The notes under the pieces are model-generated. The model was given only the letters and a program-made list of their open reading frames with translations, made no database searches and was not told the DNA's origin. Made by a program: the position numbers and the translations under genes. 64,000 nt of DNA from Branchiostoma lanceolatum (lineage: Eukaryota). Below are positions 7,301 to 56,308 of this stretch, piece by piece (position 1 is the stretch's first letter; the number at the start of each line of letters is the position of its first letter). The stretch covers positions 25,291,081 to 25,355,080 of the forward strand of contig NC_089722.1 of assembly GCF_035083965.1 (NCBI RefSeq). Reading direction: 5' to 3'.

Positions 7301-10300
7301 CTAAGTCCCTGGCTCCCGTCGCCTAGAGATGACGTACTCGATGTAGCTGATCATTCCGTCGTTGTTTGTATCATCTTCAGACAGGATCTTGTCCACAAGT
7401 CCTGGTGAGAAAATTACAATAGTGACATTGGCTGACATATTAGTGTGAGCAATACTGGTCTTCTGGTCATCACTTGATAACGTACAAGTGTGGCTTGACT
7501 ATCACATTGCTGGTTCTAGAAGTGTTTTGTACACAGTCAATACCAGTAGCTCTACTTCCCACTGCTAGGTGGCGCTGCAGTGGGAAGGATGTGGTCCCAA
7601 CCGTGACTAAGCTTGTATCCCCCCTCATCACGAGTCATGACTCATGCCTAAAGTAGATTCAACAACTTTATTGTCACGAGGAAGCTTAAGGTAGCAGAAG
7701 AATTACTGAAACGTTGGCAGGTAATTGGCATTGTTTGTGTACAAAGAACCTTGTTACCCAGTTATTTACCAACGCAACCTGATGAAACTATTCCTCTGAA
7801 GTACAGCCAGTAGGTATCCATCTGAGTTGTAGTGCCTTTTAACGTGCTAGAGGTACCTCCTCGATCACAGGACCCCAATTCTGCATCCCTTCCAAAAGAC
7901 GAATGCAGCTCCAACCAGGATGCCCTCCCCTTGAGGTTCTACCTGTAAATACGGCCATCCTCTCCTCGTGTTCCCTGTTAGTCCGCTCCCGTTCCTGCTC
8001 CACCGTCTCTCCCTCCGGAGCCGGCCGCCGGAAACTGTCGTAGTCGGAATTGTGGGATACCGCCGCCATGATCTCTAACCCGTCCAGATGGAGGTCTTTG
8101 TCGCTATCGTGAGACCTGACGTCATACATTAAGGGGAATGAACATGTGTCAATATATTGGTAAAGGCGGTTAAATTAGCTTACTCTTGTTTTGCGCAAGG
8201 ATGATGAGCAACTGTAATCGGATAGTTCTTAACTGTTTTTATTTTAGATAAAAACGCCCCAGACACTTTGTTCAGTCTTACACTCGATGTCGTACTTTAA
8301 TGTAGAGCAGCTCACATCACAAGGTATGTTTTGTGTTTTTGTATTGCTCGTAGTGTACATCACAACATATAGACTCTGAGTCGCACAAAAATGAAGTCTT
8401 AAGTAAATTTCATACTTGAAGAAATGAAACTCTCTCTCCGCTGGGGTCATGTTGTTGATGTCCTCTTCAGACAGCTCCTTGACGTGTTCCTTTAGATGTC
8501 TGAAAAATACATATGCATGGATAGATATGTACTTAAGCGTATGTATATACGTAGAGCGAGAGAGAGATAGTCGTTCGAGCGCAGTATCTGTAACAACAGC
8601 AAGATGGCGTGGTTGCATTCTTATCAGCAATATTTTTCGGTCATTCATCGCGGCAAATTAAAGTTACTTAATATAGAGCCAACGATACGCTATCTAAATT
8701 GATATAGGCTCTAACTACCAACCTGTCTCTGTTGCTAAAGTTATTACATCTAAATGATGACCAGATGTTCGTTTTCCCATACACAGAAAAGTACCAGTAA
8801 CGTTTTGTTTACTCTGTTAGGCCCTGTTGCTAAAACAAAGCATAGCGAATCACCTACCACGTAGACCTCGAAAATGTAAACATCTAGGAACCCTAATACC
8901 CTATGACTGGGAACAATTTAAGTTTTTCTTCGTCAAGTTTTGAACGCAACTGAGAAGCCATTAAGAATATGTACTACATACTGAACAAGCAGTTTAACAC
9001 GAGTAATGTAAGACCTTTGCGACAGGTACAAATATATTATATAACTAGACTGGCCGTCATTTGCTTTAAGAGCAAATTCAGGATGTTTCGCCCATACTCC
9101 TCATGCAAGAAGTGGGCTGTCCAAAAATAACTCCTGGGCAAATCCAAGTTTCTGCATAATTTATGCAAATGAGGTCCTCATGAGCATAAGTTATGTCCAG
9201 GTGCTTTCACCTTTCCTACATGTACCTACATGTAGAAGATGACATCCACAGCTTTTACAGTAAGGGGAATACAACATCATGCATAAATTATGCAAGTGAG
9301 GTCCCCATTAGCATATGTCATGGCCAGGCGTGTGCACCTTTCCTAAAGCTACCTACATGTCAAAGATGACATCTGCAGCTTGTACGGTAAGGGAAATACA
9401 AGTTTCAGCATAAATTATGTAAACGAGGTCCTCATTAGCATAATTTTTGGCCAGGTGCATTCACCTTTCCTAAAGGTACCTACATCTCAAAGATGACATC
9501 CGCAGCATTTACGGTAAGGGACATACAACTCTATGCATACATTATGCGAATTAGGTCCTCATTAGCATAAGTAATTGTCAGGTGTAGTCACCTTTCCTAT
9601 AGGTACCTACATCTCAAATATAACATCCGTACCATGTAACATAAGGTACATATAACTTTCTGTAATACCATTAGTAGAGGTACCCCCTGACATCTGCTTG
9701 GTTTTAAGTCCCAGACATGTAGGAGGGCTTATGTTACAGTATGACCTAGTTCTTGCTGGCCCCGACAGAAAATAACCAAAAATTGCATCAAAAATTGCAA
9801 AATAAATCATTTTGAAGTAGTGTATGCCAAAAAAAATAATGGGGTCCTTTGGGTAAATATCCAATGCACAACTAAACCAAATTTCAGGTCCTCAGGTTTC
9901 AACACCACGGCACTGGAGGCCATCATGTGCGACTTTTGTCTGAAAATGACCAAAAAACCTCCATAAAATCATTTTAAAAACTTATATCAAAAAAATTTAA
10001 AAAGGGTCTAGGGGTATGCACGTACTCTACCTGCATACCAAATTTCAGCTAATTTGGTCGACGGACGACCGAGAAGAAGCGATTTGAAGGTTTGACAGGA
10101 GAAGAAGAAGAAGAAGAAGAAGGAGAAGAAACCTTACAAAAACAATATGTTTCGTTGGCGAAACATAATAATTAATGCCTGTGTGGCTTCAAACCTCTCA
10201 CGCGTGATAAACTCTCAAAGCTGTGACATTCCCATATGTCAGATAGACGCTGAGTCTATATCACACACCTTACCCCTTGTCCTGAAGCATCTGAGCGTCG

Positions 10301-10422
10301 CGAAATTTGTTCTCGCCGTACCCCTCGGGAGACAGGCCCCGCGTCTGTGGGACCACGAGCAGGAGCAGGGCCCCGACAACAGCCGAGAGGACAGCCGGCG
10401 ACATGGCTACAGTACCCGCCAT
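7301..10422 (-). CDS. MCFD2-like secreted two-EF-hand protein, array copy A (4 exons)
   Basis: Exons on the - strand are about 10422-10279 (MAGTVAMSPAVLSAVVGALLLLVVPQTRG..ENKFRDAQMLQDK, a signal peptide), 8520-8415 (HLKEHVKELSEEDINNMTPAEREFHFFK), 8115-7943 ([21 protein letters not shown].., EF-hand 1 with a charged insertion) and 7401-7301 ([34 protein letters not shown]-hand 2). Donors are GTAAGG/GTATGA/GTAGAA. This layout matches vertebrate MCFD2 (…[27 protein letters not shown]…[21 protein letters not shown]). Confidence 0.75.
9130..9680. repeat. Tandem repeat with a unit of about 125 bp, about 4.5 copies
   Basis: gcataaattatgcaa(a/g)tgaggtcc...cacctttcctaaaggtacctacatgt...agatgacatccacagc...acggtaagggaaatacaa recurs at about 9155, 9279, 9408 and 9535. 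Confidence 0.8.
9650..10140. mobile_element. SINE-like dispersed repeat ending in a (GAA)n tail (other copies at 46700-47005 and 53089-53394)
   Basis: It carries two internal copies of a tacctgcataccaaatttcaggtc(a)tttggtc motif, then cgatttgaagatttgacagga(g)gagaagaagaag... The same architecture appears at all three sites, with a partial copy at 46150-46200. Confidence 0.5.
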
Positions 10423-11248: not shown

Positions 11249-13223
11249 CCTATTGGTTTAGTTGGGTATTCAGGTCCTTTTGTCGCTGCTGCTGCGAGGC
11301 TTGTACGTCTTTTTCATGTCTGCGTCTGGAGATGACGTACTCGATGTAACTCATCATGCCGTCGTCGTCGGTGTCATCTTGCTCCAGGATCTTGTCAACC
11401 ATGCCTTAAGATGACGACATAAAAATAACAGAGTATTGTTTATCATTTCTTAACATTTAGTGGTAGCACTTTTAATATGATGTGTGTTTTGAGTGTTATT
11501 TTGTATTTCCTTTAGCACAATTGTGTTCAGGGCAAATATATGCATGTAGGCATGAGGTATATTTGAATACACGATGAAAAATCGTGTTACCCATGTTACA
11601 GTACGCTCGGTCGTGACGTCTCATGGCAGGCCCTAATGCTAAAAGTGCGTGCACTTTTACTTGCTTGCTAACCTTTGTCAAAGGCGCCATGCATTCAAAT
11701 ATTTTCCCTTATACTTTACCATACAGTTACACAGCGACAGAAATGCACTTTAGTCTGTAGGAGGCGTTGTGGATCTACACCAGTTATTCGAACCATGATG
11801 AGGGGGGATACAAACTTAGTAACGGTTGGGACCACATCCTACTTACTGCAGCGCCACCTAGCTTTTTTTCTAGTCATGACATAAGGCGGACCTGTTAAAA
11901 AGTTGAGTCTCTCCTGGTGTTCTCGGTACCTCCTGGCGCGCGTCTGTTCGGGAGTCTCGTGCTCGGGCGCGGGTTGCTCGGCCGGCTGTCTGTGGGAGTG
12001 CTGGTGATCGATGGCCGCCATGATCTCCAGACCGTCCAGCTTCAGGTTCTTATCCGTGTCGTGGGACCTTCGCAGAAAGGAGGGGTTGATATAAGCCAGT
12101 GGATAATGGAAGAAAGGAAAAACTTAGCAATGAACAATAAGCGAAAATGAAAGAAGGCATGGCCTCGACACAATTGTCAGATATGGTACAAAACTACAAT
12201 TTCCAACTTGTCTTAACTCGTGTTCTTACGAGAGCTAACGTACTTGAAGAAATGGAACTCCAGTTCTTCGGGTGACATCTGGTTGATCTGTTCCTGGGTC
12301 AGCTCCTGTACGTGTTCCTTCAGGTGACTACATGGAAACAACATCATAAAACTTATATCAAAGCTCAAATGGCATGGAGCATACTTAAGAAAAATTATCA
12401 TCGCAATCCATCCAGAGGTTCATCACCACAAATACCAGGATATAAACACACACACATGCACTCACACACTCACACACACACGCACGCACCCTCACACACA
12501 AACACACTCACACACAAAAAAAAAACAAAAAAACACAAACACACCAAAAACAATACCTCTATTTCAAGTGAGGTAATAACGACGTTTTTTTACTTTGTTT
12601 GCATTTGCTATCCAACCCACAAGAGGGTGAATTTGAGTGGACCAGATGCTCCAATTCACACGCCGTTAACAACAACCTATATATATATCGCTCGGAAAAC
12701 CTTTGTTGAGAGAGACGCACAAGAAACATCACCTAATCGCTGTAAGTTGTAACAAGAGGTGCCCACCAACTGGAATAAAATGGCCTTGAAGTTGCTTGAG
12801 GAAAAGCTAATGTTGGTTTATTTATCTCCGATCAATATGTTTTAGAAGAACAAAGGTCAGAATAAAAGTACAGTATTATCCGATATGTGTACTTGCTCGT
12901 TACGTACACCATTTGCAAAATTGATTCATCTTGTGAACATGGTACAAAACATTCGTGTATTCCTCACTTAATTCAATCAATCCATGGGTAACTACTCAAA
13001 TCAAATTGAAACACAAAATAATTCTTTAATGTTGTGACAAAATTATCCATATGGTACCATGTTATGCCATATGGCTTGAATATACAAGAGAACGTTACCT
13101 CTTGTCCTGTACCATGGACGGATCCCGAAACCTGTTTTCATTCTGTTCGGCATCTGTACCGAACACGTTATGCGCCAGAAGTAGAGTCACCCCGACTGCA
13201 AAGCAAGACCACAACCCAGCCAT
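11249..13223 (-). CDS. MCFD2-like secreted two-EF-hand protein, array copy B (4 exons)
   Basis: Exons are about 13223-13101 (MAGLWSCFAVGVTLLLAHNVFGTDAEQNENRFRDPSMVQDK), 12334-12249 ([28 protein letters not shown]), 12071-11896 ([31 protein letters not shown]...RLNFLT) and 11402-11249 ([50 protein letters not shown]). Exon phases are the same as copy A. Confidence 0.75.
12437..12545. repeat. (CA)n/(CACACA)-rich microsatellite followed by poly-A
   Basis: cacacacatgcactcacacactcacacacacacgcacgc... Confidence 0.9.
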
Positions 13224-13773: not shown

Positions 13774-16700
13774 TCTATTGGTTTTCTCGGTTCCTCCTCT
13801 CCATCTCTTGCCTGTACTTGCGCGTTGAGATGACGTACTCGATGTAGCTCATCATCCCGTCGTTATCTGTATCATCTTTCTCTAGAATCATGTCCACCAT
13901 ACCTATCGATAAGATGGAACAAGGTGATGCTAAATTGTAATCTAGATGTAGATCTGCTGTTCTACTATATTACGTGATTGTGAAGCTACGTCTTGTTGCG
14001 CATGGTCTTTTTCTACGTCGACATGGTTAGGCATCAGCAGTTTTGGAGAGAAAAAATACAGGATTTGACAACTGAAATTTACTACTATTCTTACTACTTT
14101 CAAGTGACATGTTTTCTTCACTCGGTAAAATTAGTATTTTTGACAAAGTGCCCTTCCCCTTCTATTATTACAAATATGTCTTCCCTGGTTTGCTCCTAGA
14201 AGAGGAATACATTCGTCTCCAACAGTGTATAATAGAATGCTACTGTTATCTTAGTGGAATACATAACATGGCCGGGTTACCTGTAAAATACTCCATCCTT
14301 TCATCATAGTCAGGAGGGTGGTTATATTCAGACCTATGCTCCATGGCGGCCATGATCTCCAGTCCGTCCAACTTCAGGTTTTTGTCGCTGTCTTGGGACC
14401 TGATGAGAGGACAAAGTTCAGACTTATGCTTAGTAAGCTTTTATAATTACACTAGCAATGTGTGTGACTACTCTGCACTTGCTTTTGTAAGGCTGTGAAC
14501 CGGTGATGGGTCTCATTTCCCAAACGGATGCTTTATTGCTAATATCATAATAATACACTAAACGATGTAGTTATTTGACTTATCTTTCAAACGGCGTCTG
14601 TATAGGAAACGTAATATCATCTAAAGTGTACCATTTCAGTCATGAATGATTAATAAGTGAATATTCAATGAATCATGGGTGATTGGACAAACTTGTAGAC
14701 AAGAAATATGCGCATCTCACAAATAACGAGTTATTCACATGTATCATGTCATCTAAAAACTACGATACAATTGAAAACTATGTGAATTTGCCTTTGTGGG
14801 CTAATGTAAAGTTGGCGGTCTAACAAGTCCTTTTTTCGGTTCGATAACAAGGCTGCACGGCGATGGGTCAAAACTAGAGTCGATGTCATTGCCATGACGG
14901 CGTTTGGATTTCGACCGCGATTTAGCTGTCGTTAACGACAACACTTACCTTACATCGCAACCGATCATAACACTGCAACCGACATCGCTATCTTTACATA
15001 TCGCAGCAATCGAGTCTTTACATCGCAATCGAGTCTTTACATCACATTCGAGTCGCTACATCGCAACCGAGGCCTTGACACCGCAATCGAGTTCTTAAAT
15101 CGCAACCGAGTTTTAAAACAGCAATCGAGTATTTAAAACAACAGTCGAGTTTTTAAAACAGCAACCGAACCTTAAAAAAGCGGTCGAGGATTAACTCCAC
15201 GGGAGCCTAATCACATGTAGCACCTCGTTCACTTCACACCTTCTTAACACCTAATGGTTATAGGCCACCGGAGGGCGCAAATAATCGACTAGTTAGGCAT
15301 ATGGCATTGGTCTCCGTTGGTTCAAGGAGGTTTAATCCTCCTTGGTTGATTGGAAACATTATGCTGATTTGTTTATATATTTTTCTCATGAGATCTAATC
15401 TCATGAACGCAAACTTGAGTCAAACCACTCAAGGGACTGAGGGAAATGATTGCTGAGGACAGGAGATTGCAGAGGACCAAGGAGAGGACGGGCTATGTAA
15501 AAATGGATGAACTGTTTGTTATGTCTTGTGACTGGAGGTGGTTCCCTGTGCCAGGTGGTTGCCCGACAAGGTTTGACTGTACTAAATTTCCTAAACTTTC
15601 ACAGATTAACACTGAAATTGTTATAATCATCTGCATCTGGCACGCCCATGGATGATTGGAATAATTTGTGGGGCGTCATCAGAAACAACACACATCCACA
15701 TCTCACCTGCATGTTCTTAAGGAGTAAACATAAAATCCAATAATGGATAACACTGCAAATATAGATTTTCCGCAATAGTTATGCAAATTAAGTCATATTT
15801 GCATAATTTACTTCATTATGTACATTTCTGTCTAAGCTACCTGCATACTAAATATCATGGAAATCGGTTAATCCTTTGTTCAGTTATCCTCCTTGGAAGA
15901 TTCTGACTGCAGTTCCAGAGCAAGCCGCTAGGGGGTCCAAAAGTACAGCACTTCTTCCTTACATCACAATCTGCCACCAAAAAATAAAGACCACAGCACG
16001 TTCAAGTCAAATGATTTAAAAAAAAGAAAGTTGTGATGCAGTACCAAGCTCACATACCAGGGGGACCAAAAATCAACATTGACCTTCGTATTCCCAACAC
16101 CGACCCACATATCAAATATCATTACAATCCATCTTGACTAATGCTGACTACAAACATCCGGAAGGAAAGGAAGAAGGAAGCACAAACATACTATACCAAA
16201 CATACTATAGCAATCAGCACAAAGAGAGCGACGTGAGAGCGCGCAGCGAGCGCAGTGAGCACCGTTAGGGCCCTGTCACACTTGTGCGTATATTCAAGTG
16301 CGTATGAGTTGCGCATCAACATTTCTTTGGTTTAAGTAAAGTTTGAGGGAAAGAAGTTGTTTTTCACTTTGACCTACCGTTGTGCAGCCTGCTTATCGAA
16401 CCAAAGACATGACGTCATCGGCTGCAAACTAAAAAAACCTAAACCAAAAATATGTTAATACGCAATTCCTGCGGACTTGTATGTACGCAGAAGTGTGACA
16501 GGGGCTTTAAGGGCCCTGTCACATTTGTGCGTATATCATGGCCGTGTCAGTTGCGTATCAACATTTTTTTCATACGCAGGCGTGCGCACAATACGCACCT
16601 AATGCGTATCTCAATCGTTTTGTGAAAGTTTTACGTACGCAGGCACACGCAAGGTACGGCCCAGTACGCCTGATATTTTTGAAACTACCGAAAACTTTCG

Positions 16701-20477: not shown

Positions 20478-20542
<65 letters not shown>

Positions 20543-41885: not shown

Positions 41886-42589
41886 ACGGCCATGATGAAC
41901 ATATACACACATGCTCGTGTGAGTGTCTGTTTGAATTACATATTTGTGTTTAATCTTTGACACCCCATGATGACGTGTTGTATATACGGTAAGTGTAATA
42001 ATTCTCATATCAACAACAACATAAACAAGGTTATCAAGATTTTTATTGCGTTTTGTAAGATAGTCTCATCCGGATGCCAAGTGGACATAGTATCTTAAGC
42101 GGTTTTATTAGTTCCTCTATGTTAGATACTAGTATATAGCCACTTCAGTTCATAAACGTACACACACCCACAAAACGATTACTATGGCAACAGCATGATA
42201 AGTTTTCAATGCAACTGTTATATAGATAAGAGGGAATATCATTCCATTATATTACACACAGCTAAGCTTATGATCAAACGACAAATCCTCTAGAAAAGGA
42301 TTCTTCAAGATCAGCGCTATCAAAGGGGAGCGCTTCACCTTAAAATTACCTTGTTATTTTCGTTCAGATGATTGGCCCCTCGATGATTTCCTTTTCAACT
42401 TTCAAAGCGGTTCGGAAAGTATAATTACACTGTTTCTTCCTTTAAAGTTGTACCTAAAAGTTGAGACTTTGACATTTCTTTACAGGTGCTTTTAGATACA
42501 TGTGTGGCTATAAACAGCTGTACGTGCCATATATATCTTATTCCATTAATTTTCAAGTTTTCTTCATCTTGCTAATTGCACTTGTATAT

Positions 42590-44078
42590 CTAATTCCCCT
42601 GTTGTTTCATTTCCGCCTCTTTTTGTTTCCGCGCAGCTTCAGCCATGACTTCGCGCCTTTTCCTGGCGATGACGTATTCAATCCAGCTGATCATGCCGTC
42701 ATCGTCGGAGTCATCGTCCTCCAGGATCTTGTCCACCAAACCTACGCAGTAGAAACAAAAAAATTGGGACTACGATTTCCATTGAATGAGTGAAGAAAAT
42801 CTGTGGAAACACTGATTTACACAAGAGATGTCACAGAAAAAACTAGGCAGTGCATTTGCTGACCAGGGAAAAATCAGAAGTACATGTACAACATTGTAAG
42901 AGATTATGCTAGTTTAAGAGCCAGCCGTACTGCTTGTCAGGTAGTTCAAGTCATTCCCACATCATATGGTGTATGTATTGCCGTGCTCATCTCCGTTCTA
43001 TAGCCCTTGGGCCACACAGCTGCGAAAGCACTACTTCAGAGGGCTAGCCCCATAAGTGCTGTTTGTACCCATTAAGTACTCCATCATTTCGTTGTAGTCA
43101 GGAGGGAGGCCATAGTCGGTTGAATGTTCGATGGCGGCCATGATCTCCAGTCCGTCCAACTTCAAGTCCTTGTCTCCGTCGTGAGACCTGTGGTTAACGA
43201 CGAAAACAGAAGAACAAGTTTCCTGTAATTTGATCTAACCAGGCGTAGATCATCAACATCATCATCATCTGTACCCCCAAATAACCTCATTAGGGGCAAA
43301 GTAGGGGAGTTGAGGTCCCGAGCTAGGGTGGGCAGGCCTCCAGCCTGGCACGGAACGACTCAACGGTGGGAGCCGTCACAACCGTGCCAGGCAGGGCATT
43401 CCACTGGGACTATGATGCAAACTTGGCGTAAGTAATTCAAGTTTTTCTACAGCCTGCTCTTATTTTTGATTTATCAGAGGTTTCTTCAAAGGGATATACT
43501 CACTTGAAGAAGTGGAACTCCATTTCTTCGGGTGACATCTGGTTAATCTGTTCTTCCGTCAGCTCTTGGACGTGCTCCTTTAGGTGACTATAGAAAAATA
43601 TCACCGGATTATTCATGATCATTAGAAAAGCTCTCCTAAAACTTAGCTAGCTCTGTAACCATATGAAAAGTAAGTCGTCTGTATGGAGGGGCACACAGCT
43701 GTGTCCGTTCACACCATGGCTTCTCGTTCCGTTCTGTTGTAAATGAAAATTACAAAATACATAACGAAAACCTTTACGCCGTAGATATGTTAAAGTGTTA
43801 AAGATTCGTACATATCAAAATGATAGAATTGTCTTTGTATCCACAGTAAGAATTCAAAATTTGCAATAATGACTGTTTAGTTCCTTATGTGACGCTTCCC
43901 ACATTATTCCATATGGTTATCTGACCATAAAACCATAAAAAACCTACTGTTTATCCTGTGTCATTGCTGGATCCCGAAACCTATTGCTTGCAGTATCGCC
44001 GGTACCAGTGCATAATGCAATCGGCACAAGAAACAGAAAGGCACTGATGACCACCAGCAAACGACGTAAAAACTCCAT
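42590..44078 (-). CDS. MCFD2-like copy E (4 exons); its terminal exon lies just outside the 6.4-kb duplicated unit
   Basis: Exons are about 44078-43963 (MEFLRRLLVVISAFLFLVPIALCTGTGDTASNRFRDPAMTQDK, donor GTAGGT), 43588-43503 ([28 protein letters not shown]), 43186-43070 ([39 protein letters not shown]) and 42744-42590 (LVDKILEDDDSDDDGMISWIEYVIARKRREVMAEAARKQKEAEMKQQGN*). Confidence 0.75.
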
Positions 44079-45016
44079 GTTGATAGCTTAGGATTTGCGC
44101 TGCTAGTGCGTTACTACTACTATCCTCATGTGAGTGAGTATTTGTGCCGAAGTTAATCTTTAACCGCTGTACGCTCGCACCCACGTGTTCTCCACACTCG
44201 AGAGTACATTGTTTTCGCGAGGAGTAAATAAAGCAATATCAATAGACAGCAAATAGTTATTGTAAGGTGTCTGGTTGTGAATGTCGTGAGAATGAGAAGC
44301 ATCAGAACAGTTCAGACAGAGGAAAGGGCATTTATTACCAATTCACACTTTCAGTCCTTAGCCTTATCATAGTGACATTGCTTCGGAAGGTAACTAAAAT
44401 ACGAACCGCTGGAAGAACGTACAAACGTGTAAAACATTTATCCTGAAATAGGTAGATAGCCGCTTTATTTCATAAACGTAGACACAGCCACAAAACTATT
44501 TCTCGGCAACAACATCAGACTTTAAGGCGAAGTACGTAACTGCTGTACAGAAAAGGCGGAAATGTCATTCCGCTTTATTTCACACAAGTAACGTCGTCGT
44601 CAAACGACAATTCTTTTAGAAAATAATTGTTTAAGATCATCGCTTCCTTAAAGTAAGAGAGCACCTCCCCATGAAATTACCGTGTTATGTTCGTTTAGAT
44701 GCTTGGTCCCTCGACAATCACTTGGTTTTTAAAACGTTCAGGGTGGTTTGGAAAGTCTAATTACACAGTTTTTCATTTTAAGTTGTACATAAAACGGCAA
44801 TTATATGATAACCTGCCACACGTATGTAGATGTATATACCGCTATCCATCAGTTTTGGACATGTGCTTTCAGATGTTTCACTACTAATCATTGTAAGCAT
44901 TGGCTGCATGTACCATATATTTCAAATTCTATCAATTTGTTCTAAGTATCATATTTATCATCATCTAGTGCATTGCATTAATGCATCTAGTTCCCCTGTT
45001 GTTCTTGTTGTTTCCG

Positions 45017-47933
45017 TCATGCCACTTTTTGTTTCCGCGCATGCGCGGCTTCAGCCTCGACTTCGCGCCTTCTGCTGGCGATGACGTATTCAATCCAGCT
45101 GATCATGCCGTCATCGTCGGTGTCATCGTCTGCCAGGACCTTGTCCACTAATTCTGCACAGAAGAAACAATTTAAGGGGACAAACAAATATTTTCTCTGT
45201 GCATTCAATAGTTTGTTCAGTAATAAAACACTCCTTTACGCCGGAACGTTGCGGACAGAAAACCCAGAATAGTACATGATGCTTGGTGAAAATTCAAAGT
45301 TCAAAATGGGGGGAGTTAATGCTTGTTCAAAATCCACACCGCTGTGCAAGTACTACAGCAGTAGCCTGAGTACCAGCCCTTTTAGCTTCCGTCCGCTACC
45401 CAAGCTCCGCTACCGGCCGGTAGCGGAGCTTGGGTAGCGGACGGAAGCTAAAAGGGCTGGTACTCAGGCTACTACAGCAGGAGGCTAGTCCACTGGTAGT
45501 GACGTTTGTTTAAATGCTATATTCGTTTCCATAAGTGCTGTATGTACCTGCATAGTACTCCGTCATATCTTTATCTTCATGCGTGTTAAAGTGGGTTGAA
45601 TGTTCGATGGCGGCCAGTATCTCCAGTCCGTCCAACTTCAAGTCCTTATCACTGTCGTGAGTCCTGTGGAGAGGCGACGATTTCATATTGTTCAATCTAA
45701 TCACGCGTACGAATCCCTACAGATACTAGAAAGGCAACATTTGCGAGCAAATACAGCATGTTTAGCCATACTCCTCGCCATGCAAAAAATGGACTCTCCC
45801 AAAATAACAATGGACCATTCTAAAATACTTGCACTAAAAAAATGAATCACCCCAGTCCAAAATTGAGTCTTCCAGTAGCACCTCAACACAATATGGACCA
45901 GTCCACAACCATATCCACTTATTGATTAACAAATACACTTCTGCTAACAAATGGACTTTTTCATAATCATTCCAGCTCAAAATTGAAAGAAATGATTAAA
46001 GAATCCTCCCCTTGCAAGAATGGGATATTCCGTGCCATTTCCATGTAAACCAGTCGAAAAATATCCGCTGAAAATTACACTCTTGCGCATAATCAACCCA
46101 GTTCAAAATTGAATGAAAAAAGATCAACCCCAGGGAAGAATGAAGTTTTCCATAGTATACATATGAAGATTTGACAGGAGAAGAAGGAAATGACCCAAAA
46201 CAACATATTTGAATGGGTGAAATATAAAAATGTGACACCCCTTTGTTTGAATGTACTTTGGGTTGAAAATAACGAAACGAAAAAATTCTTTGTTTAAAAA
46301 ATCGTTTTGAAAGGCTGTATGCCAAACATTTGAATGAGGGCCTGTGTACATGACCAAGGCAGACACATACCAGATTTCACATTATTTTGGTTTAATACAT
46401 AGGAACTGGAGATGTGTATCTTTGTTAAAAAAAGAGTGAACAAAGCCATGTAATCACATGTCCTAGGAATTCCCATACCATATTTGGCATGAATACTAGC
46501 ACACCTGCGCCAGGAATGCAAGATAATTAGATTAACCCAATTGACCAATCAGGTGGTCGCAAGGCTCACAGGCATGCAAGGCCAGGTGCAAGGCACTTGG
46601 GGTCAATGACCTTTAGGTCATATGTAGTATTGAAAGTGACAGAAGTGGCAAATATTGTCAAGAAAGCCCAAAATAAATCGTTTTGAATATATGTATGCCA
46701 AAAATGGGAATGTAGTCCTTTAAATATTTGTACAAGCCACATATACAGCAAATTTCAGGTCATTCGGTTGAAATACCAGGGCGCAGGAGGCCAAGATATG
46801 CTAAAAATAGCCTAAAAACCTCAATAAAATCACTTTTAAGGTCAATATCAAAAAAAGGAAAAGAACACACATTGGTTTTTGCCTACATTACCTCTGTACC
46901 AAATTTCAGGTCATTTGGTCAAAAAATGACAGAGATGAATCGATTTGAAGATTTGACAGGAGGAGAAGAAGAAGAAGAAGAAGAAGAAGAAGAAGAAGAA
47001 ACATGAGTAAAAACAATATGTTTAGCCATACTAGGTATGGCTAAACATAATAATAAGTTGATGTCAATGTCTAGCCTGACTAAATCGCGCTCCTAGCGGC
47101 TGGCCCGACGGCTACAGGGCCCCTATGTAAAGCAGTGTTAATCACTGAGCAGGGCTACCCTGGGTAAACATGACAGAAGAAGAAAAAATTAAAGATTAAA
47201 AATACAGCCCCTACCGCCCTTGGGGAAGAGATCATTAACCCCAGCCAGCGAGAGAATGTATAAACCAAGTCTAATACCCATTATTCTCTGCTAACCAGAG
47301 GTGTCTAAACCATCTCCTCTCATAGGGTTAGGCAGCAGGGTGAAGGTTAAAAGAATTAACTCACTTGAAGAAGTGGAACTCCTTTTCTTCAGATGACATC
47401 TCGTTGATCTGTTCTTCCGTCAGCTCTTTGACGTGTTCTTTCAGGTGACTACGTGAAATAAGATTGTCATATAGTTAGCTCTGTAACCATAGACATGCTT
47501 TAATTCGGAGTTGGAAGGCAGGTCGTCTGTGTGGGGAGGGGTACACAGCCCAGGTCTCTCAAACGCTAATCAGTCCCATTATTAATGAAAATATAACAAA
47601 AACATTTACTACCTCAACTATGACATCTGAATGATGAATTTCTGTACTCTGTCTATCAAAATGACAACATTATCCACAATATAATTTCTCGATTTCAAAA
47701 CTTTGTAATAATGAAGTAGAAGTGTTAAAGTTCCTTATGAAACACTTCCCACATTGTTCCATATGGCAATCTAAAAACAAAGACAGAACCATGAAAACCC
47801 ACTCTTTATCCTGCGTCATTGCTGGATCCCGAAACTTGTTGCTTGGAGTTTCGTCAGTACCAGTACATAATGCGTGTGGCACCAGAAACAGAAAGGCACT
47901 GATGGCCACCACCAAACGACTTGAAAACTCCAT
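45017..47933 (-). CDS. MCFD2-like copy F (4 exons, intron 2 about 1.7 kb)
   Basis: Exons are about 47933-47803 (MEFSSRLVVAISAFLFLVPHALCTGTDETPSNKFRDPAMTQDK, donor GTGGGT), 47455-47372 (HLKEHVKELTEEQINEMSSEEKEFHFFK), 45666-45548 ([38 protein letters not shown]) and 45153-45017 (ELVDKVLADDDTDDDGMISWIEYVIASRRREVEAEAAHARKQKVA*). Confidence 0.75.
46700..47005. mobile_element. SINE-like repeat with a (GAA)12 tail (duplicated at 53089-53394)
   Basis: See 9650-10140. The tail is gaagaagaagaagaagaagaagaagaagaagaagaaa. Confidence 0.5.
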
Positions 47934-49458
47934 GTTAATAGAATAGTGCAGCCAGTACCAGCGCCTTCCTATCTGCATGTGAGTGAGAATCTGTGCCGAC
48001 GTGTGCGCACACAGCTCATTAAGTACTTTGCTTATACAAGTAGCAAAACAATTGACATAGTTATTGTAAGGTGTTCGGTTGTGGGTGTCGTGGGAATGAG
48101 AAGCATTAGTACAGTTTAGACAGACCAAAAAGGTAATTATTACAATCCTACTGCGTTTCTGGCCTGGAATGATAGCTTTATCATGGTAACGTTTCACCAG
48201 AAGCGAAGGTAGTTAAAAACGCACCAAAAAAAGACGAACACAATGCCGTAGAATTACGCATAAAACACAATGAGCCTGCTTGGAGATTCTCGAAACGCAT
48301 ACAACAAAACAGCTCCCAACAAGTTATTGAAATGATATGTAGGTTTAGTAAGGCGCGATTTTAGTATATGAAAACCATGTCAACCAGTTAAACCATGCCA
48401 AATAAGCGCATGTCAGCAACTGTGACCGCAATAACCATTTACAGCAAAATCGGTGACTTTGGCCGACTGTCTTTGCAACTCTATATGATTGCCAGTATGC
48501 CACGTTCTGCGCTGACTAATACGAACAGGAAGGGCCTTGCCCATAATGTATTATGACACTCCTTCTATGACACCACCATAATGGACCTGTTATGATACAG
48601 TAGTGGAATGTGATATGTATGGTGAGGGGGAGGGGAAAACGAGACAACCCAAACGCCTCTTCACAGATGGTATTCAGGGTTCAGAGCCAGGCTGGGACAA
48701 AACAATCTGTTTAGTACATTAATTAATATTCGCGGTTGGCGGTTTAAAAGTGCTCTCACATCACCGATGAGGTCTACGAAATACAATTTATTCCATAACG
48801 TTGGTCACAATGGCCTACATCATTACGATGAAAATGAGTCGAATTGCGCAAAATGCGTTCTCAGACTACCAGGAAAAATGGGTATAGTCTATAGAAAGTT
48901 CTGGGCGCCCTGGAAAAGATGTTTAATTGCACTATTGCGATGATACGACTCCACATACTAGTATGTATGTTCTATAAGGAATGACGGATTCACCGGTTTA
49001 GTAACACGCCTATACATAACGGGATGACTGGTGATGACCACACGCTCTATATATATCCCGGGGGAACAGCTGCACAGTACAGTCCCCAGGGCCGACCCGT
49101 GTGGCCGCTAACTCCGACTTCTGCGACTTTTTGTCCCCAGAGAAAGGTATTCAATGGACTACGATTTCCATTGAATGAGTGAAGAAAATCTGTGGAAACA
49201 CTGATTTACACAAGAGATGTCACAGAAAAAACTAGGCAGTGCATTTGCTGACCAGGGAAAAATCAGAAGTACATGTACAACATTGTAAGAGATTATGCTA
49301 GTTTAAGAGCCAGCCGTACTGCTTGTCAGGTAGTTCAAGTCATTCCCACATCATATGGTGTATGTATTGCCGTGCTCATCTCCGTTCTATAGCCCTTGGG
49401 CCACACAGCTGCGAAAGCACTACTTCAGAGGGCTAGCCCCATAAGTGCTGTTTGTACC

Positions 49459-50467
49459 CATTAAGTACTCCATCATTTCGTTGTAGTCAGGAGGGAGGCC
49501 ATAGTCGGTTGAATGTTCGATGGCGGCCATGATCTCCAGTCCGTCCAACTTCAAGTCCTTGTCTCCGTCGTGAGACCTGTGGTTAACGACGAAAACAGAA
49601 GAACAAGTTTCCTGTAATTTGATCTAACCAGGCGTAGATCATCAACATCATCATCATCTGTACCCCCAAATAACCTCATTAGGGGCAAAGTAGGGGAGTT
49701 GAGGTCCCGAGCTAGGGTGGGCAGGCCTCCAGCCTGGCACGGAACGACTCAACGGTGGGAGCCGTCACAACCGTGCCAGGCAGGGCATTCCACTGGGACT
49801 ATGATGCAAACTTGGCGTAAGTAATTCAAGTTTTTCTACAGCCTGCTCTTATTTTTGATTTATCAGAGGTTTCTTCAAAGGGATATACTCACTTGAAGAA
49901 GTGGAACTCCATTTCTTCGGGTGACATCTGGTTAATCTGTTCTTCCGTCAGCTCTTGGACGTGCTCCTTTAGGTGACTATAGAAAAATATCACCGGATTA
50001 TTCATGATCATTAGAAAAGCTCTCCTAAAACTTAGCTAGCTCTGTAACCATATGAAAAGTAAGTCGTCTGTATGGAGGGGCACACAGCTGTGTCCGTTCA
50101 CACCATGGCTTCTCGTTCCGTTCTGTTGTAAATGAAAATTACAAAATACATAACGAAAACCTTTACGCCGTAGATATGTTAAAGTGTTAAAGATTCGTAC
50201 ATATCAAAATGATAGAATTGTCTTTGTATCCACAGTAAGAATTCAAAATTTGCAATAATGACTGTTTAGTTCCTTATGTGACGCTTCCCACATTATTCCA
50301 TATGGTTATCTGACCATAAAACCATAAAAAACCTACTGTTTATCCTGTGTCATTGCTGGATCCCGAAACCTATTGCTTGCAGTATCGCCGGTACCAGTGC
50401 ATAATGCAATCGGCACAAGAAACAGAAAGGCACTGATGACCACCAGCAAACGACGTAAAAACTCCAT
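49459..50467 (-). pseudogene. MCFD2-like copy E' (duplicate of E): exons 1-3 only, terminal EF-hand exon missing because the duplication breakpoint lies in intron 3
   Basis: It is identical to E exons 1-3 shifted by +6389 (50467-50352, 49977-49892, 49575-49459). Downstream on the - strand, 49458-48200 holds no LVDK...DDDGMISWIEYV exon. The next sequence is the promoter and exon 1 of copy F. Confidence 0.5.
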
Positions 50468-51405
50468 GTTGATAGCTTAGGATTTGCGCTGCTAGTGCGT
50501 TACTACTACTATCCTCATGTGAGTGAGTATTTGTGCCGAAGTTAATCTTTAACCGCTGTACGCTCGCACCCACGTGTTCTCCACACTCGAGAGTACATTG
50601 TTTTCGCGAGGAGTAAATAAAGCAATATCAATAGACAGCAAATAGTTATTGTAAGGTGTCTGGTTGTGAATGTCGTGAGAATGAGAAGCATCAGAACAGT
50701 TCAGACAGAGGAAAGGGCATTTATTACCAATTCACACTTTCAGTCCTTAGCCTTATCATAGTGACATTGCTTCGGAAGGTAACTAAAATACGAACCGCTG
50801 GAAGAACGTACAAACGTGTAAAACATTTATCCTGAAATAGGTAGATAGCCGCTTTATTTCATAAACGTAGACACAGCCACAAAACTATTTCTCGGCAACA
50901 ACATCAGACTTTAAGGCGAAGTACGTAACTGCTGTACAGAAAAGGCGGAAATGTCATTCCGCTTTATTTCACACAAGTAACGTCGTCGTCAAACGACAAT
51001 TCTTTTAGAAAATAATTGTTTAAGATCATCGCTTCCTTAAAGTAAGAGAGCACCTCCCCATGAAATTACCGTGTTATGTTCGTTTAGATGCTTGGTCCCT
51101 CGACAATCACTTGGTTTTTAAAACGTTCAGGGTGGTTTGGAAAGTCTAATTACACAGTTTTTCATTTTAAGTTGTACATAAAACGGCAATTATATGATAA
51201 CCTGCCACACGTATGTAGATGTATATACCGCTATCCATCAGTTTTGGACATGTGCTTTCAGATGTTTCACTACTAATCATTGTAAGCATTGGCTGCATGT
51301 ACCATATATTTCAAATTCTATCAATTTGTTCTAAGTATCATATTTATCATCATCTAGTGCATTGCATTAATGCATCTAGTTCCCCTGTTGTTCTTGTTGT
51401 TTCCG

Positions 51406-54322
51406 TCATGCCACTTTTTGTTTCCGCGCATGCGCGGCTTCAGCCTCGACTTCGCGCCTTCTGCTGGCGATGACGTATTCAATCCAGCTGATCATGCCGT
51501 CATCGTCGGTGTCATCGTCTGCCAGGACCTTGTCCACTAATTCTGCACAGAAGAAACAATTTAAGGGGACAAACAAATATTTTCTCTGTGCATTCAATAG
51601 TTTGTTCAGTAATAAAACACTCCTTTACGCCGGAACGTTGCGGACAGAAAACCCAGAATAGTACATGATGCTTGGTGAAAATTCAAAGTTCAAAATGGGG
51701 GGAGTTAATGCTTGTTCAAAATCCACACCGCTGTGCAAGTACTACAGCAGTAGCCTGAGTACCAGCCCTTTTAGCTTCCGTCCGCTACCCAAGCTCCGCT
51801 ACCGGCCGGTAGCGGAGCTTGGGTAGCGGACGGAAGCTAAAAGGGCTGGTACTCAGGCTACTACAGCAGGAGGCTAGTCCACTGGTAGTGACGTTTGTTT
51901 AAATGCTATATTCGTTTCCATAAGTGCTGTATGTACCTGCATAGTACTCCGTCATATCTTTATCTTCATGCGTGTTAAAGTGGGTTGAATGTTCGATGGC
52001 GGCCAGTATCTCCAGTCCGTCCAACTTCAAGTCCTTATCACTGTCGTGAGTCCTGTGGAGAGGCGACGATTTCATATTGTTCAATCTAATCACGCGTACG
52101 AATCCCTACAGATACTAGAAAGGCAACATTTGCGAGCAAATACAGCATGTTTAGCCATACTCCTCGCCATGCAAAAAATGGACTCTCCCAAAATAACAAT
52201 GGACCATTCTAAAATACTTGCACTAAAAAAATGAATCACCCCAGTCCAAAATTGAGTCTTCCAGTAGCACCTCAACACAATATGGACCAGTCCACAACCA
52301 TATCCACTTATTGATTAACAAATACACTTCTGCTAACAAATGGACTTTTTCATAATCATTCCAGCTCAAAATTGAAAGAAATGATTAAAGAATCCTCCCC
52401 TTGCAAGAATGGGATATTCCGTGCCATTTCCATGTAAACCAGTCGAAAAATATCCGCTGAAAATTACACTCTTGCGCATAATCAACCCAGTTCAAAATTG
52501 AATGAAAAAAGATCAACCCCAGGGAAGAATGAAGTTTTCCATAGTATACATATGAAGATTTGACAGGAGAAGAAGGAAATGACCCAAAACAACATATTTG
52601 AATGGGTGAAATATAAAAATGTGACACCCCTTTGTTTGAATGTACTTTGGGTTGAAAATAACGAAACGAAAAAATTCTTTGTTTAAAAAATCGTTTTGAA
52701 AGGCTGTATGCCAAACATTTGAATGAGGGCCTGTGTACATGACCAAGGCAGACACATACCAGATTTCACATTATTTTGGTTTAATACATAGGAACTGGAG
52801 ATGTGTATCTTTGTTAAAAAAAGAGTGAACAAAGCCATGTAATCACATGTCCTAGGAATTCCCATACCATATTTGGCATGAATACTAGCACACCTGCGCC
52901 AGGAATGCAAGATAATTAGATTAACCCAATTGACCAATCAGGTGGTCGCAAGGCTCACAGGCATGCAAGGCCAGGTGCAAGGCACTTGGGGTCAATGACC
53001 TTTAGGTCATATGTAGTATTGAAAGTGACAGAAGTGGCAAATATTGTCAAGAAAGCCCAAAATAAATCGTTTTGAATATATGTATGCCAAAAATGGGAAT
53101 GTAGTCCTTTAAATATTTGTACAAGCCACATATACAGCAAATTTCAGGTCATTCGGTTGAAATACCAGGGCGCAGGAGGCCAAGATATGCTAAAAATAGC
53201 CTAAAAACCTCAATAAAATCACTTTTAAGGTCAATATCAAAAAAAGGAAAAGAACACACATTGGTTTTTGCCTACATTACCTCTGTACCAAATTTCAGGT
53301 CATTTGGTCAAAAAATGACAGAGATGAATCGATTTGAAGATTTGACAGGAGGAGAAGAAGAAGAAGAAGAAGAAGAAGAAGAAGAAGAAACATGAGTAAA
53401 AACAATATGTTTAGCCATACTAGGTATGGCTAAACATAATAATAAGTTGATGTCAATGTCTAGCCTGACTAAATCGCGCTCCTAGCGGCTGGCCCGACGG
53501 CTACAGGGCCCCTATGTAAAGCAGTGTTAATCACTGAGCAGGGCTACCCTGGGTAAACATGACAGAAGAAGAAAAAATTAAAGATTAAAAATACAGCCCC
53601 TACCGCCCTTGGGGAAGAGATCATTAACCCCAGCCAGCGAGAGAATGTATAAACCAAGTCTAATACCCATTATTCTCTGCTAACCAGAGGTGTCTAAACC
53701 ATCTCCTCTCATAGGGTTAGGCAGCAGGGTGAAGGTTAAAAGAATTAACTCACTTGAAGAAGTGGAACTCCTTTTCTTCAGATGACATCTCGTTGATCTG
53801 TTCTTCCGTCAGCTCTTTGACGTGTTCTTTCAGGTGACTACGTGAAATAAGATTGTCATATAGTTAGCTCTGTAACCATAGACATGCTTTAATTCGGAGT
53901 TGGAAGGCAGGTCGTCTGTGTGGGGAGGGGTACACAGCCCAGGTCTCTCAAACGCTAATCAGTCCCATTATTAATGAAAATATAACAAAAACATTTACTA
54001 CCTCAACTATGACATCTGAATGATGAATTTCTGTACTCTGTCTATCAAAATGACAACATTATCCACAATATAATTTCTCGATTTCAAAACTTTGTAATAA
54101 TGAAGTAGAAGTGTTAAAGTTCCTTATGAAACACTTCCCACATTGTTCCATATGGCAATCTAAAAACAAAGACAGAACCATGAAAACCCACTCTTTATCC
54201 TGCGTCATTGCTGGATCCCGAAACTTGTTGCTTGGAGTTTCGTCAGTACCAGTACATAATGCGTGTGGCACCAGAAACAGAAAGGCACTGATGGCCACCA
54301 CCAAACGACTTGAAAACTCCAT
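51406..54322 (-). CDS. MCFD2-like copy F' (identical duplicate of F, 4 exons)
   Basis: It has the same exons as F shifted by +6389. Every six-frame ORF in 49159-55547 is identical to its partner in 42770-49158. Confidence 0.7.

Positions 54323-56264: not shown

Positions 56265-56308
<44 letters not shown>

What the first reader, a model, noticed from the sequence alone, without database searches (positions are those of the whole stretch)
7301..54322. Head-to-tail tandem array of at least 7 MCFD2-like secreted two-EF-hand genes
Seven loci (A, B, C, E, F, E', F') sit on the same strand with the same four-exon, phase-conserved structure. Exon 1 is the signal peptide plus N(K/R)FR(D/E)P(A/S)M(V/T)QDK. 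Exon 2 is HLKEHV(Q/K)EL(T/S)EEQIN.MSPEE.EFHFFK. Exon 3 is EF-hand 1 (HD.DK(D/N)L.LDGLEI.AA). Exon 4 is EF-hand 2 (LVDK.L..DDTD.DGMISWIEYVI). Spacers between loci are 0.55-0.95 kb. MCFD2 is single-copy in vertebrates, where it acts as the ERGIC-53/LMAN1 cargo co-receptor, so an array this size suggests lineage-specific expansion and diversification. The paralogs differ in the EF-hand linker and in a basic or charged C-terminal tail that vertebrate MCFD2 lacks.
Basis: partly seen in the sequence, partly recalled or inferred. Interest (0 to 1): 0.7.

Follow-up and report, generated by a model that had tools for sequence, protein, structure and literature searches.

The report
Amphioxus MCFD2 gene cluster, tandemly expanded
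This stretch of the European amphioxus genome holds five distinct, already-annotated copies of the small calcium-binding secretory-pathway gene MCFD2 in a row, plus a perfect recent re-copy of two of them, which makes it an ordinary lineage-specific gene-family expansion and not a new kind of system.

Summary
The array is real, lies on the minus strand, and is MCFD2-family. MCFD2 is the only significant PDB sequence match (E 1.7e-14). All nearest relatives across Metazoa are named "MCFD2 homolog". The source is Branchiostoma lanceolatum, and every gene is already annotated in RefSeq and ENA.

The count of "at least 7" is inflated. There are five distinct four-exon genes:
- A: 7301-10422
- B: 11250-13223
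- DC: 13775-41893
- E: 42590-44078
- F: 45017-47933

E' and F' belong to a 6,388-bp tandem duplicate with no mismatches or gaps (42767-49154 = 49156-55543). It starts inside E intron 3, so E' has no exon 4 and no EF-hand 2. A second B. lanceolatum assembly lacks this duplicate. It also lacks the 26.9-kb repeat-filled intron that separates "C" (exons 3-4) from its own exons 1-2.

B. floridae and B. belcheri carry four genes (E, DC, B, A) in the same synteny. The amphioxus copies form one clade (100% bootstrap). Ortholog dN/dS is 0.08-0.33. F is a B. lanceolatum-specific copy of E.

The basic tail is found across invertebrates, not only in amphioxus. Whether the proteins act as LMAN1/ERGIC-53 co-receptors is inferred, not shown.

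The parts
7301..10422 (-). Gene A, 168 aa. Exons 10422-10274, 8499-8416, 8115-7943, 7401-7301. Long EF-hand linker (32 aa) and short tail ending ...SRRREPGT.
   Evidence: Model. Identical to XP_066297885.1 (P0013).
11250..13223 (-). Gene B, 179 aa. Exons 13223-13099, 12327-12244, 12067-11892, 11404-11250. Long linker (33 aa). The only paralog that keeps an HxH at the position of human His99/His101.
   Evidence: Identical to CAH1232360.1 (P0008).
13775..41893 (-). Gene DC, 156 aa. Exon 1 41893-41754, exon 2 41349-41266, exon 3 14399-14281, exon 4 13902-13775. Intron 2 is 26.9 kb.
   Evidence: The joined model keeps the reading frame and the GT-AG sites. It equals XP_066297925.1 (P0264) exactly. 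Orthologues are single compact genes in L001, L002, L004 and L006.
14400..41265 (.). Repeat-filled intron 2 of DC. It holds reverse-transcriptase fragments on both strands (21145-21966 +, 22689-23009 -). It also holds satellite arrays at 18838-19420, 29540-33405 and 33600-35829. No intact long ORF is present. A 506-bp inverted-repeat pair at 98% identity lies near its ends (14799-15302 and 41096-40591).
   Evidence: Absent from the other B. lanceolatum assembly, where this intron is 249 bp.
42590..44078 (-). Gene E, 161 aa. Exons 44078-43948, 43587-43504, 43187-43069, 42741-42590.
   Evidence: Identical to XP_066297934.1 (P0001).
45017..47933 (-). Gene F, 155 aa from the MEF start. Exons 47933-47803, 47448-47365, 45663-45548, 45153-45017. 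A B. lanceolatum-specific copy of E.
   Evidence: Matches XP_066298048.1 (P0003), which has a 15-aa longer annotated N-terminus. Absent from B. floridae and B. belcheri. E-F dS is 0.29.
42767..49154 (.). Duplication unit, copy 1. It contains E exons 3-1, all of F, and 1.2 kb upstream of F.
   Evidence: Self-blastn gives 6388/6388 identical bases.
49156..55543 (.). Duplication unit, copy 2. It contains E' and F'. One filler base T at 49155 joins the copies, and the junction forms a 10-bp palindrome at 49149-49176.
   Evidence: Only one copy of the unit is present in assembly GCA_927797965.1.
49458..50467 (-). E', a truncated duplicate of E with exons 1-3 only (50467-50337, 49976-49893, 49576-49458). 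It has no exon 4 and so no EF-hand 2.
   Evidence: RefSeq XP_066298061.1 (P0259) is 123 aa and reads into intron 3.
51406..54322 (-). F', an exact complete duplicate of F. Exons 54322-54192, 53837-53754, 52052-51937, 51542-51406.

Best explanation
The window is the MCFD2 locus of Branchiostoma lanceolatum, and it is a tandem array specific to cephalochordates.

History of the array:
- One ancestral MCFD2 gene was duplicated into four genes (E, DC, B, A). This happened after amphioxus split from other deuterostomes and before the living Branchiostoma species diverged.
- E was copied again to give F in the B. lanceolatum lineage.
- In this assembled haplotype, a 6.4-kb block (the 5' three exons of E plus all of F) was copied once more, very recently. 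That produced an identical F' and a truncated E' that is probably non-functional.
- In the same haplotype, intron 2 of DC has swollen to 26.9 kb with retrotransposon debris and satellites.

Shown for the five intact genes:
- Each encodes a 155-179-aa precursor with a hydrophobic N-terminal signal-like segment.
- A conserved N-terminal 'lid' segment follows (N-K/R-F-R-D-P...HLKEH).
- There are two EF-hands with the calcium-ligand residues conserved.
- There is no KDEL or HDEL retrieval signal.
- The EF-hand 2 exit helix is predicted to continue into a basic tail.
- Orthologues are under purifying selection.

Inferred from vertebrate MCFD2: the proteins are soluble lumenal subunits that dock, in a Ca2+-dependent way, on the lectin LMAN1/ERGIC-53 and help select polypeptide cargo for ER-to-Golgi export. 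The paralogs, which differ mainly in the inter-EF-hand loop (13-33 aa) and the tail (8-26 aa), would have split this role by cargo or by tissue.
For: Family identity:
- phmmer against PDB sequences gives MCFD2 as the only significant match (E 1.7e-14).
- Profile search hits are named MCFD2 homolog across Metazoa.
- The top 12 Foldseek PDB hits of the AF2 model are all MCFD2.
- My models equal annotated B. lanceolatum proteins.

Gene structure: GT-AG introns with phases 2, 2, 1 in every copy in three species.

History:
- B. floridae, the floridae x japonicum hybrid and B. belcheri each have 4 genes, between the same Ig/fn3 and EMI/collagen neighbours.
- The second B. lanceolatum assembly has 5 genes.
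- In the NJ tree the amphioxus clade has 100% bootstrap. Orthogroups A, B and DC have 100% and E+F has 92%.
- Synonymous divergence between the old paralogs is saturated.
- E-F dS is 0.29, against 0.31-0.40 for lanceolatum-floridae orthologues.
- The E'F' unit shows 0 differences in 6,388 bp, whereas aligned segments of the two B. lanceolatum assemblies are 85-95% identical.

Constraint: ortholog dN/dS is 0.08-0.33.

Residues: all side-chain Ca ligand positions of both EF-hands are conserved. The equivalents of human His51, His55 and His99 of the Zn cluster (PMC10944485) are invariant.

Regional identity: 0.74 lid, 0.80 EF-hand 1 and 0.68 EF-hand 2, against 0.21 linker and 0.19 tail.
Against: - No expression data could be examined, so it is not shown here that all five genes are transcribed. 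None of these proteins has a Logan transcript-assembly source in the collection.
- Binding to LMAN1 was not tested, and no amphioxus LMAN1 was examined.
- All amphioxus copies have Met where every other sampled metazoan has Tyr (human Tyr135). The patient mutation Y135N at that residue disrupts the LMAN1-MCFD2 complex (PMC10119632).
- The fourth Zn ligand (human His101) is kept only in B.
- The AF2 model is of moderate quality (mean pLDDT 71.5), and the Foldseek E-values are weak (3e-3 and above).
- The perfect duplicate could be an assembly error, which would leave 5 genes.
- The deep nodes of the tree are unresolved, so co-orthology to vertebrate MCFD2 rests on best-hit evidence.
Confidence: 0.8

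Rival explanations
1. E' and F' are an assembly artefact (a false tandem duplication), so the animal has only five MCFD2 genes at this locus.
For: The two copies are identical at every one of 6,388 positions, introns and spacers included. Aligned segments of the two B. lanceolatum assemblies are only 85-95% identical. The independent assembly GCA_927797965.1 has a single copy of the unit.
Against: The junction is a unique new adjacency with a filler base T (49155), not a join through shared sequence. Such a junction would normally have to exist in reads. The unit is only 6.4 kb, which is shorter than typical long reads (my own knowledge of sequencing, not tested here). Amphioxus haplotypes differ by many structural variants in this same window, such as the 26.9-kb and the roughly 1.1-1.3-kb intron insertions. 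A haplotype-specific young duplication is therefore plausible.
Confidence: 0.35
2. The paralogs are not ERGIC-53 co-receptors. They are secreted extracellular Ca2+/Zn2+-binding proteins, and the basic tail acts as a proprotein-convertase site or a matrix/heparin-binding motif.
For: There is a signal-like N-terminus and no KDEL or HDEL. Basic clusters (RKRR, RRRR, SRRR, RKYR) follow directly after EF-hand 2. From my own knowledge, rat MCFD2 was also described as a secreted factor (SDNSF). The Tyr-to-Met change at the human Y135 position could weaken LMAN1 binding (PMC10119632).
Against: The same RRR tail is present in single-copy MCFD2 homologs of hemichordates, echinoderms, molluscs and others, so it is not linked to the expansion. 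Vertebrate MCFD2 also lacks KDEL and is retained only through LMAN1. The lid, the EF-hands and three of the four Zn-cluster histidines are conserved to human, which argues for a conserved partner surface.
Confidence: 0.15
3. Several copies are decaying pseudogenes or redundant duplicates without distinct functions.
For: E' is truncated. E and F show raised dN/dS (0.33-0.46). The other assembly's DC allele has Ala at the first Ca-ligand position of EF-hand 2, and its F allele has Thr-to-Pro in the same loop.
Against: A, B, DC and E have intact ORFs and splice sites in three species. Their dN/dS is 0.08-0.33 while dS between the old paralogs is saturated. Each orthogroup keeps its own linker and tail type across species (alignment).
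Confidence: 0.1

Closest known systems
Vertebrate MCFD2 (human Q8NI22; PDB 2VRG, 3A4U, 8JP4), the soluble EF-hand subunit of the LMAN1/ERGIC-53 cargo receptor
   Same: - About 36% identity over the whole mature protein.
- Signal-like N-terminus and no KDEL.
- HxxxH lid motif and the loop His (human His51, His55, His99) conserved.
- Two EF-hands with conserved Ca ligands.
- D81, D89, D122 and D129 conserved. From my own knowledge, these are human F5F8D mutation sites.
   Different: - 4-5 tandem copies here; from my own knowledge, vertebrates have one.
- A basic helical C-terminal tail of 8-26 aa where human MCFD2 ends ...AKSLQ.
- Met in place of Tyr135 in all amphioxus copies.
- His101 kept only in B.
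- Linker length of 13-33 aa.
- Partner binding is untested.
Invertebrate 'MCFD2 homolog' proteins (Saccoglossus, Ptychodera, sea urchins, starfish, crinoids, oysters, scallops, Lingula, insects)
   Same: Same N-terminal N-K-F-(H/R)-D-P...HxKEH motif, the same EF-hands and the same (A/S)RRR tail after EF-hand 2. The long linker of A and B resembles the mollusc and echinoderm form. Two copies on one contig or chromosome also occur in Pecten maximus, Ylistrum balloti and Anneissia japonica.
   Different: Most of the sampled species show one or two copies among the listed hits, against 4-5 in amphioxus. The amphioxus copies share derived states: Met at EF-hand 2 position 7, and Ser at position 9 where most of the others have Thr.
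CREC family (reticulocalbin, calumenin, Cab45/SDF4) and calmodulin-like proteins
   Same: EF-hand proteins. The CREC proteins are also lumenal.
   Different: From my own knowledge, CREC proteins have six EF-hands and often an HDEL signal, and calmodulin has four EF-hands and is cytosolic. Neither appears among the sequence hits at E below 0.1. Only generic EF-hand_7 is seen in Pfam, and it scores below its gathering cut-off.

Membership tests
MCFD2 family | Sequence similarity to MCFD2 across the mature protein that is stronger than to any other EF-hand family | tested here: met
   Against PDB sequences, MCFD2 scores E 1.7e-14 over residues 36-135 and the next family scores E 0.18. The best non-amphioxus database hits are all named MCFD2 homolog.
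MCFD2 family | Exactly two EF-hand loops with intact Ca2+ ligands (positions 1, 3, 5, 9, 12) | tested here: met
   In all five paralogs and their orthologues, EF-hand 1 reads D-D-D/N-D-E and EF-hand 2 reads D-D/N-D-S-E, with Gly at position 6 of EF-hand 2. Exception: the DC allele of assembly GCA_927797965.1 has Ala at EF-hand 2 position 1.
MCFD2 family | Cleavable signal peptide and no ER-retrieval motif (retention depends on a partner) | tested here: met
   Each has an N-terminal hydrophobic 12-mer with mean Kyte-Doolittle score 2.2-3.2. The C-termini are EPGT, QLNQ, RENQ, QQGN and QKVA. No dedicated signal-peptide predictor was available, so cleavage itself is inferred.
MCFD2 family | N-terminal lid with the Zn2+ His cluster (human His51, His55, His99, His101; PMC10944485) | tested here: inconclusive
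   The equivalents of His51, His55 and His99 are invariant. His101 is kept only in paralog B. The other invertebrate homologs sampled also lack it.
MCFD2 family | MCFD2-type paired EF-hand fold | tested here: met
   The AF2 model has mean pLDDT 71.5, with per-10-residue means of 72-88 over residues 51-160. The top 12 Foldseek PDB hits are MCFD2 chains (probability 0.97-1.00, E 3e-3 to 6e-2, target TM-score 0.47-0.62). The match is weak but specific.
MCFD2 family | Ca2+-dependent 1:1 complex with the carbohydrate-recognition domain of LMAN1/ERGIC-53 | not testable with these tools
   No complex prediction or biochemistry is available here. One caution: Tyr135, whose patient mutation Y135N disrupts the complex (PMC10119632), is Met in all amphioxus copies.
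MCFD2 family | Orthology: the cluster as a whole is the amphioxus counterpart of vertebrate MCFD2 | tested here: inconclusive
   The amphioxus clade is monophyletic at 100% bootstrap, but the deeper nodes have 7-42% support. Every Branchiostoma protein among the 120 listed hits is one of the protein types encoded in this cluster. The whole amphioxus genome could not be scanned.
CREC family (reticulocalbin / Cab45) | Six EF-hands in a 300-360-aa lumenal protein, often ending in HDEL | tested here: not met
   The proteins are 155-179 aa with two EF-hands and no HDEL. No CREC protein appears among the PDB hits.
Calmodulin-like proteins | Four EF-hands, cytosolic, no signal peptide | tested here: not met
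   There are two EF-hands and a hydrophobic N-terminal leader. No calmodulin sequence hit at E of 1 or better.

The most novel reading that the evidence does not exclude
Amphioxus has turned the single MCFD2 co-receptor into a set of 4-5 cargo-specific or tissue-specific adaptor subunits for one LMAN1 lectin. The variable inter-EF-hand loop and the basic tail would tune cargo choice or Zn2+/Ca2+ regulation. The array is also still growing at its E end (4 genes, then 5, then the haplotype-specific E'F' copy). This would be a natural experiment on how ER-export receptor specificity diversifies.
Probability: 0.25. Interest if true: 0.5.

Novelty: new member of a known kind. Interest (0 to 1): 0.25.

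Why it matters
MCFD2 is the polypeptide-recognising subunit of the best-studied ER-to-Golgi cargo receptor. Its role in animals that lack coagulation factors V and VIII is unknown; PMC7069976 notes that orthologues predate blood coagulation. A lineage with four long-maintained, constrained paralogs that differ mainly in two flexible segments offers a way to ask which parts of MCFD2 set cargo specificity. The practical value here is mostly corrective:
- The locus holds five distinct genes, not seven.
- One apparent copy is a truncated product of a haplotype-specific or artefactual duplication.
- One gene is split by a 26.9-kb polymorphic repeat insertion.

No paper in the searched library discusses MCFD2 in amphioxus. 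The genes themselves are already in public annotation.

Tried and rejected
- Looking up RefSeq proteins P0003, P0009 and P0001 to fetch the window's own assembly or further haplotypes found nothing on record. The duplication could therefore be compared with only one other B. lanceolatum assembly.
- I first suspected that the 26-kb insert bracketed by 506-bp inverted repeats was a Polinton/Maverick-type DNA transposon. I rejected this because only one ORF reaches 150 aa (152 aa) and there are only reverse-transcriptase fragments and satellites. There is also no clean target-site duplication. The two 506-bp repeats may simply be two copies of a short repeat.
- I looked for exon 1/2-like sequence directly upstream of 'C', and for exon 3/4-like sequence downstream of the 41.5-kb exon pair. 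tblastn at E up to 1 found none.
- The sigma-70 promoter and terminator scan is meaningless for an animal genome. Its only use was to expose the palindrome at the duplication junction.
- The first bootstrap run timed out and was redone with a faster script.
- The paper PMC7193514, on MCFD2/ERGIC-53 contact residues, is not held. PMC7069976 gave no residue list. I therefore made no interface-by-interface comparison.
- Pfam gives only a generic EF-hand_7 match below its gathering threshold, so Pfam alone could not place the family.
- The representative-library search confirmed a broad family (362 representatives at E of 1e-10 or better). It carries no names, so it added nothing on other amphioxus loci.

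Full report
**What is in the sequence**

Six-frame motif searches and tblastn with the four exon peptides place every MCFD2-like exon on the minus strand between 7301 and 54322. None lies outside that range. Reading the boundaries base by base gives GT-AG introns at identical positions, with phases 2, 2, 1, in every copy. An automated model builder recovered the same structure in the window and in five related loci.

The complete genes are:

| Gene | Coordinates | Protein length |
|---|---|---|
| A | 7301-10422 | 168 aa |
| B | 11250-13223 | 179 aa |
| E | 42590-44078 | 161 aa |
| F | 45017-47933 | 155 aa |
| F' | 51406-54322 | 155 aa |

**Three corrections to the observation**

1. Self-comparison shows that 42767-49154 and 49156-55543 are identical at all 6,388 positions, with no mismatch and no gap. 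A single filler T at 49155 joins them. F' is therefore an exact copy of F.
2. The duplicated unit starts inside E intron 3, 26 bp short of exon 4 (42741-42590). As a result E' (50467-49458) has exons 1-3 only. RefSeq models it as a 123-aa protein that runs into the intron and lacks EF-hand 2 (XP_066298061.1).
3. Joined, they keep phase and frame. The product is identical to RefSeq XP_066297925.1 (P0264) and is allelic to CAH1232362.1 (P0006).

C and D are therefore one gene, DC, with a 26.9-kb intron 2. The window holds five distinct genes, one exact duplicate and one truncated duplicate.

**Source and existing annotation**

[quoted passage not shown] A, B, DC and F also match annotated B. lanceolatum proteins from two assemblies. 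No paper in the searchable library mentions MCFD2 together with amphioxus. The one paper that mentions MCFD2 together with Branchiostoma is a review of lectins with antimicrobial activities and names each term once.

**Family assignment**

- phmmer against all PDB sequences finds MCFD2 as the only significant family (E 1.7e-14 to 4e-11, covering residues 36-135). The next hits are calcineurin-B homologous proteins, CIB1 and nucleobindin at E of 0.18 or worse.
- Pfam sees only a generic EF-hand pair, below its gathering score.
- A profile of ten family members retrieves 346 proteins. The best are named MCFD2 homolog in hemichordates, echinoderms, molluscs, nemerteans, brachiopods, priapulids and insects.
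- An exhaustive search of cluster representatives finds 362 at E of 1e-10 or better.
- An AlphaFold2 model of E has mean pLDDT 71.5, with per-10-residue means of 72-88 over residues 51-160. It shows two helix-loop-helix units, and the last helix continues through the basic tail to about residue 159. Its 12 best Foldseek PDB matches are all MCFD2 chains, though with weak E-values.

**Comparison with other genomes**

A second B. lanceolatum assembly (GCA_927797965.1, locus L001) carries F-E-DC-B-A. Each gene has four exons. That assembly has one copy of the E-F unit, and DC intron 2 is 249 bp. Aligned segments of the two assemblies are only 85-95% identical. Zero differences between the E/F and E'/F' units therefore mean a very young duplication or an assembly error.

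B. floridae (L006), a floridae x japonicum hybrid (L002) and B. belcheri (L003-L005) each have four genes, E-DC-B-A. In all of them the array lies between the same neighbours: a 1,092-aa Ig/fibronectin-III gene and an EMI/collagen gene.

A neighbour-joining tree puts all amphioxus copies in one clade (100% bootstrap). Orthogroups A, B and DC have 100% support and E has 92%. F lies inside the E group, next to B. lanceolatum E.

Nei-Gojobori estimates:
- dN/dS is 0.08-0.33 between orthologues.
- dS is saturated between the four old paralogs.
- dS is 0.29 and dN/dS is 0.46 between E and F, against dS 0.31-0.40 for lanceolatum-floridae orthologues.

The array was therefore built in steps: four genes before the genus radiated, F in the B. 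lanceolatum lineage, and E'F' within one haplotype (or by error).

**What the proteins look like**

- Each precursor starts with a strongly hydrophobic segment and ends without KDEL or HDEL.
- All side-chain Ca2+ ligand positions of both EF-hands are conserved.
- The equivalents of human D81, D89, D122 and D129 are conserved.
- The residues matching human His51, His55 and His99 are invariant. In human MCFD2 these three, with His101, form the Zn2+ cluster that holds the N-terminal lid over the cargo site (PMC10944485).
- His101 is retained only in B.
- All amphioxus copies have Met where every other sampled metazoan has Tyr (human Tyr135). The patient mutation Y135N at that site disrupts the LMAN1-MCFD2 complex (PMC10119632).
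- Among the five paralogs, mean pairwise identity is 0.74 in the lid, 0.80 in EF-hand 1 and 0.68 in EF-hand 2. It is 0.27 in the leader, 0.21 in the inter-EF-hand linker (13-33 aa) and 0.19 in the tail (8-26 aa).
- The basic (A/S)RRR motif after EF-hand 2 is present in hemichordate, echinoderm, mollusc, brachiopod, nemertean and priapulid homologs. It is therefore ancestral and was lost in vertebrates; amphioxus did not gain it.
- Tandem pairs also exist in Pecten, Ylistrum and Anneissia.

**How it most likely works**

Shown: these are five constrained, intact MCFD2-family genes, each with a leader, two EF-hands whose calcium-ligand residues are conserved, and no retrieval signal.

Inferred from vertebrate MCFD2 (PMC10119632, PMC10944485, PMC7069976): the proteins sit in the ER/ERGIC lumen bound to LMAN1/ERGIC-53 in a Ca2+-dependent way. 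They recognise polypeptide segments of cargo. The paralogs would have divided this job by cargo or by tissue through their variable loop and tail.

None of this could be tested here. No expression data, no amphioxus LMAN1 sequence and no complex prediction were available. A secreted extracellular role is a minority alternative.

**The duplication and the big intron**

The junction of the 6.4-kb duplicate is a new adjacency with one filler base, and it completes a 10-bp palindrome (49149-49176). That is more like a real replication or repair product than a join through shared sequence. I put the chance that it is real at about two in three, but only the raw reads can decide.

The 26.9-kb DC intron contains reverse-transcriptase fragments on both strands (RVT_1, E 4e-10 to 7e-6). 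It also contains several satellite arrays and no intact long ORF. A 506-bp inverted-repeat pair at 98% identity lies near its ends. The insert is absent from the other B. lanceolatum assembly and from the other species, where this intron is 249-312 bp.

**Verdict**

This is a lineage-specific tandem expansion of a known, already annotated family. It has modest interest as a possible natural diversification of an ER cargo co-receptor, and it is not a new kind of system.

Noticed in passing
window 49149-49176: The junction of the perfect 6.4-kb tandem duplication has a single filler T (49155). It completes a 10-bp perfect palindrome, ATTCAATGGA...TCCATTGAAT. This may hint at a template-switch or hairpin-mediated origin.
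   Followed up: partly
window 14400-41265: A 26.9-kb haplotype-specific insertion sits in intron 2 of gene DC. It holds RVT_1 fragments on both strands (21145-21966 +, 22689-23009 -). It holds a 2.2-kb satellite with a 54/107-bp unit (33600-35829), 29/58/87-bp repeats (30790-33405) and a 98-bp repeat (18838-19420). A 506-bp inverted-repeat pair at 98% identity (14799-15302 and 41096-40591) lies near its ends, with no clear target-site duplication.
   Followed up: partly
window 9798-10130, 46669-46991 and 53058-53380: A repeat of about 330 bp (74% identical) lies in A intron 1 and in F/F' intron 2. Both introns are about 1.1-1.3 kb longer than in the other B. lanceolatum assembly, which suggests polymorphic mobile-element insertions.
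   Followed up: no
L001 11350-11472 and 6661-6798 (assembly GCA_927797965.1): The other assembly's DC allele reads ...EEDATDNDG..., with Ala at the first Ca2+-ligand position of EF-hand 2 (the position of human D129, where D129E is a patient mutation). Its F allele has Thr-to-Pro in the same loop. These may be hypomorphic alleles segregating in the species.
   Followed up: no
all amphioxus copies, e.g. window 42686-42700 (E), 45098-45112 (F), 7346-7360 (A): Position 7 of EF-hand 2 is Met in every amphioxus paralog of all three species. It is Tyr in every other metazoan sampled, including human Tyr135, a combined factor V/VIII deficiency mutation site.
   Followed up: partly
L006 10001-15229 (B. 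floridae): RefSeq isoform X3 (P0011) joins exons 1-2 of gene B to exons 3-4 of gene A. Read-through chimeric splicing between neighbouring array members is therefore annotated. By analogy, E' exon 3 could splice to F exon 4 in the window, since the phases are compatible.
   Followed up: no
L003 4956-7880 and L004 12337-20073 (B. belcheri): The DC-B spacer is 7.7 kb in B. belcheri, against about 0.6 kb in the other species. In one assembly it holds a 395-aa called gene with no Pfam hit, possibly a transposon insertion.
   Followed up: no
window about 2717-5689 and 55173-58329: These stretches align to the parts of L001 that carry the flanking genes conserved in all Branchiostoma loci examined. 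An EMI/collagen-domain gene lies at the low-coordinate side and a 1,092-aa Ig/fibronectin-III gene at the high-coordinate side. Both are on the strand opposite to the MCFD2 array.
   Followed up: partly
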